A DNA stretch of 64,000 nucleotides from Minisyncoccota bacterium (lineage in GTDB: Bacteria; Patescibacteriota; Minisyncoccia; Phycocordibacterales; UBA9973), in the NCBI GenBank assembly GCA_041666045.1, contig JBAYHR010000004.1:4996-68995 (forward strand). The letters are read 5' to 3'. Shown here one piece after another: positions 63,371 through 64,000 of the stretch; positions within the stretch are counted from its first letter, which is position 1; each line of letters starts with the position of its first letter. A program made the position numbers and the translations under genes. The notes under the pieces were generated by a model that did no database searches, was not told the DNA's origin, and saw only the letters and a list, made by a program, of their open reading frames with translations.

Positions 63371-63615
63371 ATTTATAAAAATTGCGGTGTTTGCTGGACA
63401 AAGTTCGAAACTATTTCGAGCTAAATCCAAATGATTAAAGTTAATGTGTACGCTCGACGATTTTCTTAATTTTAATATCTCCACTACGCTCGACTAACCT
63501 GTTCCGTACCAAGCTTGGCTTTGGTTCGGGATGTGCTAATTCAAAAGTGGACTTAAGAAAATGGAAACGAATTTTAAATGAAAAACATTATTACGAATTA
63601 TTTAATTTCTTCTAT

Positions 63616-63975
63616 TTAAATTTTTCTACTATCATAGGCCCAGTGCAGAACAGCCTGCCTTTGAGCAGGGCGACAAGACAAATCTTTCGCTCGGCAATTC
63701 TTTCTGATCTGTGATATGTGCCGGCTGATGGCTTTCCAGCGCTTGATCTGTCGTTCATCTTCGTTCGGAAGCCGTCTGCCCATGTAATAACGACAATACC
63801 ACTGAAACCAGCCACGAGGGTCGTGCTCTTCATTGATCCAGCCTTTCTTAATCCAGACTTTGAGTGGCTGGCTGGCATGTTTATGGAAAAAGTTGAGCGT
63901 GTCATCGTGATGTTCGGGCGAAAGCTTAGCTCGTATAAACCAACTTTTAGGAAACTCTTTCTTGCAGTCGGTCAT
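63616..63975 (-). CDS. Hypothetical protein in a compositionally foreign (~50% GC) segment
   Basis: Complete 119-aa ORF ([13 protein letters not shown]...); GC and codon usage are unlike the rest of the window. Confidence 0.4.
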   Translation of the reverse strand: [119 protein letters not shown]

Positions 63976-64000
63976 ATACTTGCCACCAAAGACACCGAGC

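What the first reader, a model, noticed from the sequence alone, without database searches (positions are those of the whole stretch)
63380..64000. Abrupt shift to ~50% GC at the window end: foreign DNA or chimeric join
From about 63612 onward the sequence is ~50% GC with a complete 119-aa ORF ([25 protein letters not shown]...[32 protein letters not shown]...). Its codon usage is unlike the 30% GC host genes. The preceding ~230 bp are intermediate in GC and contain short direct repeats (TACGCTCGAC x2). This could be very recent horizontal acquisition, or a mis-assembly or contaminant junction. An enterobacterial or phage origin is possible.
Basis: seen in the sequence. Interest (0 to 1): 0.5.

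Follow-up and report, generated by a model that had tools for sequence, protein, structure and literature searches.

The report
Recently transferred gene cassette, cut by window
The GC-rich end of the window is the edge of a small gene cassette that this low-GC Paceibacterota (CPR) bacterium recently acquired from another CPR bacterium; it is not an assembly error or contaminant, and its last gene encodes a very conserved protein of unknown function and unknown fold.

Summary
The composition jump is real. Window 63616-64000 is 47% GC against 30% for the window (z=4.3). GC3 is 0.52 against 0.19±0.06 in 65 host ORFs. The "complete 119-aa ORF" is not complete: it is the 3' part of a 173-codon gene that runs 137 nt past the window end.

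It is not a chimeric join. Two independent long assemblies (JGI 111.5 kb, ENA 71 kb) match the last 4 kb exactly and continue into low-GC host DNA. A third (Logan) crosses the boundary.

The window end is the right edge of a ~2.4-kb GC-elevated cassette: msrB remnant, SOUL, DUF378, a 151-aa membrane protein, the 173-aa gene and ~230 nt of 3' non-coding DNA. The boundary lies at about 63361-63384. Another Patescibacteria contig carries the same cassette at 96-98% nucleotide identity with unrelated flanks. Relatives that share the host's 260aa-FtsW-FolD-PAP2 synteny lack it.

The closest copies are all in Patescibacteria. There is no DNA match in E. coli or phage genomes. This indicates recent transfer within CPR.

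The 173-aa protein has no Pfam, PHROG or NCBIfam family and no PDB fold match (model pLDDT 95.8). It also occurs in Alphaproteobacteria, jumbo phages and giant-virus contigs, and it often sits next to tspO.

The parts
63616..64000 (-). The 3' 128 codons, including the stop at 63616-63618, of a 173-codon gene (NCBI MFA6524443.1, 'hypothetical protein WC264_01795', Candidatus Paceibacterota bacterium). The gene is cut by the window end; its true start falls at 64137 in window numbering.
   Evidence: The frame is open to the window edge. The full gene is seen on L005 8745-9266 and on L006. It is 47% GC with GC3 0.52. More than 8000 homologues were found. NCBI name.
63384..63615 (-). 3' non-coding tail that travels with the cassette (34.5% GC). 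Its distal ~115-135 nt (63361/63384-63497) are conserved in the second cassette copy, L001.
   Evidence: The blastn match is 88% over 137 nt, and roughly 93% (estimated by eye from alignment A3, not computed) over the core from TTAG(T/C)CGAGCG to CACCGCAA. No Rfam family reaches its threshold. The RNA fold z-score is only -1.46. The element was not found in any other fetched locus or in IMG/VR.
63449..63494 (.). Two exact copies of TACGCTCGAC (63449-63458 and 63485-63494), 36 nt apart start to start, inside the conserved 3' tail.
   Evidence: Positions. Both copies are retained in L001 as GTCGAGCGTA and GCCGAGCGTA on the gene strand. The chance rate is 5.4%. Their function was not determined.
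63339..63368 (.). Bidirectional intrinsic-terminator hairpin (AAAAAAATCGCC-CCAATA-GGCGATTTTTTT) between the convergent host 113-aa gene and the cassette gene. Similarity to L001 fades within or just beyond it, so it marks the cassette's right boundary at about 63361-63384.
   Evidence: The terminator scan finds it on both strands. The alignment with L001 ends here.
63016..63357 (+). Host flank: a 113-aa orphan gene at 26% GC (GC3 0.18), convergent with the cassette gene and preceded by a perfect sigma-70 consensus promoter at 62944-62972. It is not part of the cassette.
   Evidence: Composition. Promoter. No Pfam hit. No copy was found in the 13 relatives.

Best explanation
The last ~620-640 nt of the window are the right-hand end of a ~2.4-kb accessory gene cassette. 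A 30-32% GC Candidatus Paceibacterota genome acquired this cassette recently by lateral transfer from another, more GC-rich Patescibacteria lineage.

Shown on the source contig, the cassette runs as follows:
- a truncated, frameshifted msrB remnant;
- a SOUL haem-binding-family gene;
- a DUF378 gene on the opposite strand;
- a 151-aa four-helix membrane protein gene;
- the 173-aa gene, which starts 4 nt after the membrane gene's stop;
- about 230 nt of 3' non-coding DNA.

The cassette ends at a host terminator hairpin next to a conserved 260aa-FtsW-FolD-PAP2 block. The window simply stops in the middle of the 173-aa gene.

The high GC, above all at third codon positions, is donor composition that has not yet drifted towards the host's.

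Inferred, not shown: entry was by DNA uptake followed by illegitimate or short-homology recombination into a variable region. No integrase, transposase or att-like repeat was found with the cassette.

Inferred with low confidence: the 173-aa product is a strongly basic (pI 10), Trp-rich soluble protein. It may act with membrane proteins of the TspO, DUF378 and fasciclin/SOUL stress module, for example in tetrapyrrole or photo-oxidative stress handling.
For: Composition:
- Partial-gene GC is 0.473 and GC3 0.516, against host 0.30 and 0.19±0.06.
- On the contig, SOUL is 0.446 GC (GC3 0.47), DUF378 0.39, the TM151 gene 0.38 and the full 173-aa gene 0.435 (GC3 0.45). Flanking genes are 0.25-0.36.

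Assembly:
- Three independent assemblies agree across the junction.

Second copy:
- L001 (JGI 3300009082, 34% GC) shares only the cassette with the 73 kb of host sequence. SOUL plus DUF378 match at 98.0% over 1128 nt, the 173-aa gene at 95.6% over 551 nt, the 3' tail at 88% and an msrB piece at 88.6%.
- The only other match is a histidine-kinase gene at 72%.
- L001's flanks are a type I restriction-modification system, RhuM, RadC and a GAF protein, which are unrelated to the host's flanks.

Reciprocal scars show a common ancestral cassette:
- The host copy has lost 321 nt of msrB.
- L001 has lost the TM151 gene and keeps an 8-codon relic, ATGGCATATATAATAGGAAAATAA, formed between GCATATATAA and GCGTATATAA.

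Empty sites:
- 13 relatives share the 260aa-FtsW-FolD-PAP2 synteny (FtsW 48-90% aa identity over the aligned part). None has a cassette gene upstream of the 260-aa gene in up to 6.5 kb.
- One of them, L182, has a nucleotidyltransferase/HEPN-like pair and a kinase there; these assignments are from reading the sequence, not from a family search.

Mobility of the gene:
- Copies at least 83% identical lie in at least five different contexts. All are 4-14 GC points above their flanks.
- Across 80 GTDB loci, gene GC otherwise tracks host GC (r=0.94).
- The next relative out (identity 80% to P0001; 78% to the window protein) sits compositionally at home in a 59% GC Uhrbacteria genome.
- One 90%-identity cluster spans Paceibacterota, Taylorbacteria and Campbellbacteria.
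Against: - No mobility gene, tRNA target or flanking repeat defines the cassette, so the transfer mechanism is unknown.
- The calibration of genome divergence between L001 and the host rests on one kinase gene, which may be a paralogue. L001 is only 8.8 kb long.
- Part of the GC excess comes from amino-acid composition. GC1 is 0.49 and GC2 0.41, because the protein is rich in Trp, Arg, Gly and Pro.
- Read coverage and long-read support could not be examined.
- The functional hypothesis is weak. TspO lies within 300 nt in only 11 of 80 genome loci, and this host's cassette has no tspO. In phages the gene sits among nucleotide-metabolism or unannotated genes.
Confidence: 0.8

Rival explanations
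1. Native, vertically inherited gene. On this reading its GC is held up by selection, either through strong constraint on a Trp/Arg/Gly-rich protein together with codon or nucleotide-level selection, or through GC-biased repair. No transfer would be involved.
For: - The family is extremely conserved, at 65-70% aa identity between Patescibacteria and Alphaproteobacteria.
- GC1 and GC2 are above the host average.
- The regression of gene GC on host GC has a slope of 0.79 and an intercept of 0.12, so the gene is somewhat GC-richer than any low-GC host.
- Homologues exist in many low-GC CPR genomes.
Against: - GC3, which is the least constrained by the protein, carries the largest excess (0.52 against 0.19).
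- Other low-GC hosts carry fully ameliorated copies. Examples are L037 (flank 0.305, GC3 0.235), L055 (0.297, 0.246) and L024 (0.333, 0.263). High GC3 is therefore not required by the gene.
- The neighbouring SOUL gene and the non-coding tail share the anomaly.
- The cassette is missing at the syntenic site of relatives.
- It is 96-98% identical in a genome with different flanks.
Confidence: 0.12
2. Assembly chimera or contaminant: two organisms' contigs were joined at about 63.4-63.6 kb.
For: There is an abrupt composition change at a non-coding stretch. The source is a metagenome-assembled genome. Coverage could not be checked.
Against: - Assemblies from JGI and ENA are base-identical over window 60001-64000, and a Logan assembly over 61894-63424; all three cross the junction.
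- Low-GC genes resume about 2.4 kb further on the same contigs: XRE, a trypsin-like protein, a histidine kinase, a response regulator and RecG, at 25-36% GC.
- The GC-rich block contains a host-style decayed msrB remnant.
Confidence: 0.03
3. DNA of enterobacterial or phage origin, either a prophage fragment or a recent import from a ~50% GC gammaproteobacterium.
For: - About 50% GC resembles enterobacterial composition.
- Distant homologues (27-47% aa) exist in 15 large phage genomes, including Yersinia phage YerA41, Vibrio jumbo phages and Flavobacterium and Cobetia phages.
- 433 IMG/VR loci, many from giant-virus MAGs, carry a homologue.
Against: - blastn finds no match in the E. coli genomes or the phage records.
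- Phage and viral proteins are much more distant (at most 66%) than Patescibacteria copies (83-95%).
- There are no phage hallmark genes in or next to the cassette.
- No PHROG family matches.
Confidence: 0.02

Closest known systems
Compositionally atypical genomic islets acquired by horizontal transfer in bacterial genomes (the classic GC/GC3-anomaly criterion)
   Same: - GC and GC3 are atypical.
- The genes are accessory, stress-type genes.
- The location is a variable region at the edge of a conserved syntenic block.
- The islet is absent in relatives.
- A near-identical copy exists elsewhere.
   Different: - It is very small (~2.4 kb).
- It has no integrase, tRNA target, IS element or direct repeats.
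- Donor and recipient both appear to be Patescibacteria.
The nex18 (fasciclin)-SMa1078-tspO stress locus on rhizobial megaplasmids. nex18, SMa1078 and tspO rise together in the swarming transcriptome (PMC2848241, Table 2). nex18 is described as induced in symbiosis and on nutrient deprivation (PMC2651895, citing Oke & Long 1999 and Davey & de Bruijn 2000).
   Same: - In R. lentis, R. etli CFN42 and S. medicae plasmids, the homologue of the window gene (65-68% aa) is the last gene of a fasciclin-DUF378-TspO-X operon and overlaps the tspO stop.
- The same partner families (DUF378, fasciclin, TspO) recur beside the gene in Patescibacteria loci L002, L092 and L192.
   Different: - This host's cassette has DUF378 and SOUL plus a 151-aa membrane protein, but no tspO and no fasciclin gene.
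- The fourth gene has never been studied.
- In S. meliloti 1021, pSymA holds only a truncated copy covering residues 14-118.
YerA41_065, annotated 'structural protein' in Yersinia phage YerA41, and unnamed ORFs of Vibrio jumbo phages
   Same: They belong to the same protein family (35-47% aa identity over 82-94% of the length).
   Different: - They lie in a phage context beside ribonucleotide reductase, dUTPase or thymidylate synthase.
- There is no DNA-level similarity.
- They are not the source of the window's gene.

Membership tests
Horizontally acquired genomic islet | Base composition and codon usage differ from the host genome | tested here: met
   GC is 0.47 against 0.30 (z=4.3). GC3 is 0.52 against 0.19±0.06 (z=5.3). 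The neighbouring cassette genes are also elevated.
Horizontally acquired genomic islet | Absent from the orthologous site in related genomes | tested here: met
   13 loci share the 260aa-FtsW-FolD-PAP2 synteny, and none has a cassette gene upstream. Caveat: the closest relative, L178, has only 340 nt of upstream sequence.
Horizontally acquired genomic islet | Much higher similarity to a copy in another genome than the rest of the two genomes show, and different flanks | tested here: met
   The cassette is 95.6-98.0% identical in nucleotides to L001. The only other shared segment is 72% identical, and the flanks are unrelated.
Horizontally acquired genomic islet | Mobility machinery or insertion signatures (integrase, transposase, tRNA target, flanking direct repeats) | tested here: not met
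   There is no integrase or transposase within or next to the cassette. There is no tRNA gene at either edge. No repeat brackets the part seen in the window. The full cassette edges were compared only with L001.
Assembly chimera / contaminant join | The junction is not reproduced in independent assemblies, and a different organism lies beyond it | tested here: not met
   Three assemblies are identical across the junction, and host-like low-GC genes resume after 2.4 kb. Read-level coverage is not testable with these tools.
Prophage or phage-derived segment | Phage hallmark genes, or DNA or PHROG similarity to phages | tested here: not met
   There is no blastn match in the phage collection, no PHROG match and no hallmark gene among the neighbours.
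Any curated protein family or solved fold, for the 173-aa product | A significant profile match (Pfam, NCBIfam, PHROGs) or structural match (PDB) | tested here: not met
   - Pfam, NCBIfam and PHROGs give no match for near or distant members.
- PDB sequence searches find nothing below E=0.068.
- The AF2 model has pLDDT 95.8 and pTM 0.90.
- The AlphaFold-database libraries were not available.
TspO-centred stress module (fasciclin/nex18 - DUF378 - TspO - X) | The gene lies in one transcription unit with tspO | tested here: not met
   There is no tspO in the host cassette. The feature is met in rhizobial plasmids, in L092 and L192 and in 11 of 80 GTDB loci.
TspO-centred stress module (fasciclin/nex18 - DUF378 - TspO - X) | Other module genes (DUF378, fasciclin or SOUL) are adjacent | tested here: met
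   DUF378 (E=2e-25) and SOUL (E=2e-48) lie in the same cassette.
Druantia DruM-like cytosine methylase (a lead from PADLOC only) | A significant match to the methyltransferase profile, including catalytic motifs | tested here: not met
   Only 15-19.5 bit matches (best E=1.2e-4) to positions 178-260 of a 361-position profile, in 12 of 36 members. There is no Pfam methyltransferase hit. The similarity is regarded as unproven.

The most novel reading that the evidence does not exclude
The 173-aa protein may be the founding member, so far unnamed, of a very widespread and unusually conserved family with a previously unseen fold.

- The family has about 2,600 clusters at 50% identity.
- Identity is 65-70% between CPR bacteria and rhizobia, and 45-52% to giant-virus contigs.
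- The gene repeatedly sits in one operon with tspO, DUF378 and fasciclin or SOUL genes.

On this reading it would be the soluble partner or effector of bacterial TspO in tetrapyrrole or oxidative-stress handling. Its frequent lateral movement, including the transfer caught in this window, would reflect a self-sufficient stress module.
Probability: 0.25. Interest if true: 0.65.

Novelty: new member of a known kind. Interest (0 to 1): 0.35.

Why it matters
For the scan, this removes a suspected artefact. The contig is sound, and the GC jump is an ordinary small horizontally acquired islet.

It is also a clean, datable example of gene exchange between Patescibacteria. These are episymbionts with tiny genomes, and transfer routes between them are poorly documented. 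The two copies carry reciprocal deletion scars, which give the ancestral state directly.

The larger potential value lies in the cargo. The protein family has no Pfam family, no solved or recognisable fold and no annotation. Yet it is conserved at ribosomal-protein levels across bacterial phyla, jumbo phages and giant viruses, and it is genetically tied to TspO, whose bacterial function is still debated. Intact copies exist in tractable rhizobia (R. etli CFN42, S. medicae WSM419), so the question can be tested.

Tried and rejected
- Rfam at gathering threshold over the window found only tRNAs. A permissive search of 63300-64000 gave only sub-threshold, terminator-driven sRNA look-alikes.
- ARAGORN found no tRNA or tRNA fragment at the cassette edge.
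- The RNA fold of the 3' tail is not unusually stable (z=-1.46), so an sRNA or riboswitch reading has no support.
- An exact-sequence look-up of the 119-aa ORF found nothing, because the ORF is truncated.
- Pfam, NCBIfam, PHROGs and PADLOC give no family for the protein. The weak DruM and HrpE hits were not accepted.
- Fold searches failed at first because the model was lost on the remote machine, and the prediction was re-run. The AlphaFold-database libraries were unavailable.
- Literature searches for the motif GWFQWY, for DUF5872, for TspO with Patescibacteria and for TspO with DUF378 gave nothing relevant. Davey & de Bruijn 2000 is not held.
- The 3' non-coding element and the GC-rich hairpin region left of the cassette have no other copy in the 190 fetched loci, and the element has none in IMG/VR.
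- Neighbourhood censuses in phage and giant-virus loci gave no consistent functional partner. They showed RNR, dUTPase or ThyA in two phages and DUF2177 within 4 kb in 46 of 80 mutually related viral contigs.

Full report
**Observation**

The window is a 30% GC genome. Its genes are typical of Patescibacteria: FtsW/RodA, FolD, PAP2, SIMPL, an NlpC/P60 protein and a few tRNAs.

The last 385 nt (63616-64000) are 47.3% GC. That is 4.3 sd above the mean of all 385-nt windows and is the highest value in the window. Only the tRNA clusters near 48.2 and 49.8 kb also exceed 42%.

The reading frame on the minus strand has GC3 = 0.516. The 65 non-overlapping ORFs of at least 100 aa average 0.188 ± 0.061, and the next highest is 0.34.

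The non-coding 63384-63615 is 34.5% GC. The two neighbouring intergenic pieces are 11.5% and 15.7%.

TACGCTCGAC occurs at 63449 and 63485 and nowhere else in the window. A repeat of that length arises in 5.4% of shuffles of the region.

The 119-aa ORF is not complete. The frame remains open upstream of the Met at 63975 up to the window edge (…LGVFGGKY|MTDCKK…), and all homologues are 170-174 aa.

**Source contig and assembly**

An exact-sequence look-up of the neighbouring 260-aa protein found three records:
- JGI 3300037810 contig Ga0376277_0001194 (111.5 kb, also in NCBI; locus L005);
- an independent ENA assembly, k141_645408 (71 kb; L006);
- a Logan contig of SRR6484324 (L007).

L005 and L006 are 100% identical to window 60001-64000 and run on beyond it. 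L007 is 100% identical to 61894-63424.

The window end is therefore an arbitrary cut. Window coordinate equals 72882 minus L005 coordinate. The gene is 173 codons, with its start at 64137 in window numbering. NCBI lists it as MFA6524443.1, 'hypothetical protein WC264_01795 [Candidatus Paceibacterota bacterium]'.

Beyond the gene the contig carries, in order:
- a 151-aa membrane protein gene whose stop lies 4 nt before the 173-aa start;
- a DUF378 gene on the opposite strand;
- a SOUL gene.

The GC values are 0.38, 0.39 and 0.446. After these come low-GC genes again (0.25-0.36): an XRE regulator, a trypsin-like protein, a histidine kinase, a response regulator and RecG.

A chimeric join or a contaminant is thus excluded, as far as assemblies can show.

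**A transferred cassette**

The best protein hit (P0001, 95%) lies on L001, an 8.8-kb contig at 34% GC from a different metagenome. blastn of L001 against the 73 kb of host sequence gives these matches:
- SOUL plus DUF378: 98.0% over 1128 nt;
- the 173-aa gene: 95.6% over 551 nt;
- a 137-nt piece of the 3' non-coding tail (window 63361-63497): 88%;
- an 88-nt msrB piece: 88.6%;
- otherwise only one histidine-kinase segment, at 72%.

L001's flanks are a type I restriction-modification system, RhuM, RadC and a GAF protein. They are unrelated to the host's flanks. In L001 the block is also GC-elevated, with GC3 of 0.29-0.44 against about 0.2 in the flanks.

The two copies carry reciprocal scars.
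- The host copy lacks 321 nt of msrB. It retains a frameshifted remnant that still reads …FESTCGWPSFDDEIQSAVKK….
- L001 has an intact msrB but has lost the 151-aa gene. It keeps ATGGCATATATAATAGGAAAATAA (MAYIIGK*), which is the first four and last four codons joined between GCATATATAA and GCGTATATAA.

Both therefore descend from one cassette: msrB-SOUL-DUF378-TM151-X173-3' tail.

Similarity to L001 stays strong up to CACCGCAA (window about 63384) and fades inside the bidirectional terminator hairpin at 63339-63368.

**Empty sites**

A metagenome scan with the 260-aa protein returned 13 loci. Where enough downstream sequence is held, they keep the 260aa-FtsW-FolD-PAP2 order. FtsW identity is 48-90% aa over the aligned part.

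None has SOUL, DUF378, TM151, X173 or the 113-aa gene upstream of the 260-aa gene, in up to 6.5 kb. In L182 that position holds a nucleotidyltransferase/HEPN-like pair and a sensor kinase. I assigned these by reading the sequences and did not run a family search on them.

The cassette thus sits in a variable region at the edge of a conserved block.

**Where it came from**

Two searches for an enterobacterial or phage source found nothing:
- There is no DNA match in E. coli genomes or phage records.
- The top 120 of more than 8000 protein homologues are 76-95% identical. Those that carry an organism name are Patescibacteria (Minisyncoccia, Pacebacteria, Patescibacteria group).

Two results show how far the closest copies have spread:
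- One 90% cluster of 133 members spans Paceibacterota, Taylorbacteria and Campbellbacteria.
- Copies 83-95% identical lie in at least five contexts:
  - SOUL-DUF378-TM151-X;
  - msrB-SOUL-DUF378-X;
  - TM152-X-PEBP, beside CBASS, RhuM and zeta-toxin genes;
  - TspO-TM152-X;
  - TspO-X;
  - a DpnI/methyltransferase island.

In every one of these the gene is 4-14 GC points above its flanks, at 0.44-0.53 against 0.31-0.46.

Over 80 GTDB loci, by contrast, gene GC follows host GC (r=0.94). Other low-GC hosts hold ameliorated copies with GC3 of 0.24-0.30. High GC3 is therefore not intrinsic to the gene.

The next relative out is 80% identical to P0001 and 78% to the window protein. It lies in a 59% GC Uhrbacteria genome, where its composition fits.

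The simplest reading is a sub-lineage of the gene from a mid- to high-GC Patescibacteria donor, now moving among low-GC Paceibacteria faster than it ameliorates.

No integrase, transposase, tRNA target or flanking repeat was found. The route of entry, presumably DNA uptake and illegitimate recombination, is inference.

**The protein**

The product is 173 aa, with pI 10.0, 7 Trp and 38 Lys plus Arg.

No curated family or solved structure matches:
- No Pfam, NCBIfam or PHROG family matches it or distant members.
- No PDB sequence is related.
- AlphaFold2 with a 36-sequence alignment gives pLDDT 95.8 and pTM 0.90. The model is an N-terminal beta-hairpin followed by nine helices.

The family is large and widespread:
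- It has 2,581 clusters at 50% identity with E ≤ 1e-3.
- There are 594 or more loci in GTDB genomes. They include Alphaproteobacteria, Acidobacteriota, Omnitrophota, Bacteroidales and others, at 65-74% identity to the CPR protein.
- It occurs in 50 rhizobial plasmids and 15 large phage genomes.
- It occurs in 433 IMG/VR loci, many from giant-virus MAGs, at 45-52% identity.
- Some members are fused to DUF5872 or to a STAND NTPase.

The residues invariant across the diverse alignment are P41, G48, G52, P63, N82, D106, G109, W113, G120, R121, D127, Q130, R133, Q161 and W166.

**Functional context**

On plasmids of R. lentis, R. etli CFN42 and S. medicae, the gene is the last of a fasciclin-DUF378-TspO-X operon and overlaps the tspO stop. 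S. meliloti 1021 pSymA keeps only residues 14-118.

Two papers bear on the first three genes. In S. meliloti, nex18, SMa1078 and tspO rise together (PMC2848241, Table 2). nex18 is described as induced in symbiosis and under nutrient deprivation (PMC2651895).

In 80 GTDB loci, tspO lies within 300 nt on the same strand in 11 and within 3 kb in 16 (Pfam confirmation). The same partner families (TspO, DUF378, fasciclin, SOUL, TM151) recur in CPR loci.

In phages the neighbours are ribonucleotide reductase and dUTPase (YerA41), thymidylate synthase (pVp-JHP1101), or unannotated ORFs.

I therefore favour, at low confidence, a soluble partner of a TspO-centred membrane stress module. A nucleotide or DNA role is the alternative. 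Neither is shown.

**Verdict**

The finding is real, and it is an ordinary kind of thing: a small, recently acquired islet. It is not an artefact and is not of enterobacterial or phage origin.

The cargo protein family is the only unusual element. It lies largely outside the finding as it was posed.

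Noticed in passing
window 48055-48387 (-), next to tRNA-Thr 48512-48585: A 110-aa ORF matches only the C-terminal part (profile positions 77-166 of 172) of the Pfam Phage_integrase family (E=1.9e-9). It has the second-highest GC3 in the window (0.34). It is probably the relic of an integrative element at a tRNA gene.
   Followed up: partly
window 62944-62972 (+): A perfect sigma-70 consensus promoter (TTGACA, 17 nt, TATAAT; 12 of 12) lies upstream of the 113-aa orphan gene (63016-63357). That gene has no Pfam hit and no copy in the 13 relatives examined.
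   Followed up: partly
L005 6700-6940 (source contig, about 65.9-66.2 kb in window numbering, outside the window): Three consecutive GC-rich hairpins (up to 55% GC per 100 nt) lie just left of the cassette, overlapped by a probably spurious 142-aa ORF call. There is no Rfam match above threshold and no similar sequence in any fetched locus.
   Followed up: partly
L005 ~6990-7180 (outside the window): A truncated, frameshifted msrB (SelR) remnant sits at the left edge of the cassette. The intact gene is present in the sister cassette, L001 5211-5579.
   Followed up: yes
L001 6871-6895: An eight-codon relic (MAYIIGK*) of the 151-aa membrane protein gene, left by a deletion between the near-identical 10-mers GCATATATAA and GCGTATATAA.
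   Followed up: yes
L005 4126-4213 (-) and 4290-4381 (+) (outside the window): Two divergently oriented tRNA-Ser genes lie about 3 kb left of the cassette. ARAGORN gives one the unusual anticodon ACT, and Rfam reports only one of the two.
   Followed up: no
L001 6897-7418 vs L005 8745-9266: The two 173-aa gene copies differ at about 23 of 522 nt (estimated from 95.6% identity) but at 9 of 173 residues. Protein identity (94.8%) is thus lower than nucleotide identity. That is an unexpectedly high share of replacement changes for so conserved a protein, and all fall at variable positions.
   Followed up: no
NC_003037.1 (S. meliloti 1021 pSymA) 589919-590233: The model strain carries only a fragment of the gene (residues 14-118) in unannotated DNA on pSymA; the neighbouring genes were not checked in this record. 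R. etli CFN42 and S. medicae WSM419 have intact copies.
   Followed up: partly
P0154, P0230, P0209 (family members): Some members are fused to other domains. P0154 and, below Pfam's cut-off, P0230 carry an N-terminal DUF5872. P0209 is a 1696-aa protein in which the domain precedes a STAND/AAA NTPase region.
   Followed up: partly
protein residues 60-143 of P0001 and P0009: There is a weak but repeated similarity (12 of 36 members, best E=1.2e-4) to positions 178-260 of the PADLOC DruM (Druantia cytosine methylase) profile. It has not been shown to be real.
   Followed up: partly
context of P0006 (58-kb contig, no DNA held): A 90%-identical copy with its TM152 partner lies in a defence-type island. 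The island holds a ParB-fused N6/N4 methyltransferase, a Schlafen/AlbA protein, a CBASS CD-NTase with Cap15, RhuM and a zeta toxin.
   Followed up: no
L093-L172 (IMG/VR loci): In giant-virus-like contigs the homologue is about 215 aa, with an extra N-terminal helix. A DUF2177 membrane protein gene lies within 4 kb in 46 of the 80 contigs. DUF2177 also neighbours the gene in a few bacterial loci.
   Followed up: partly
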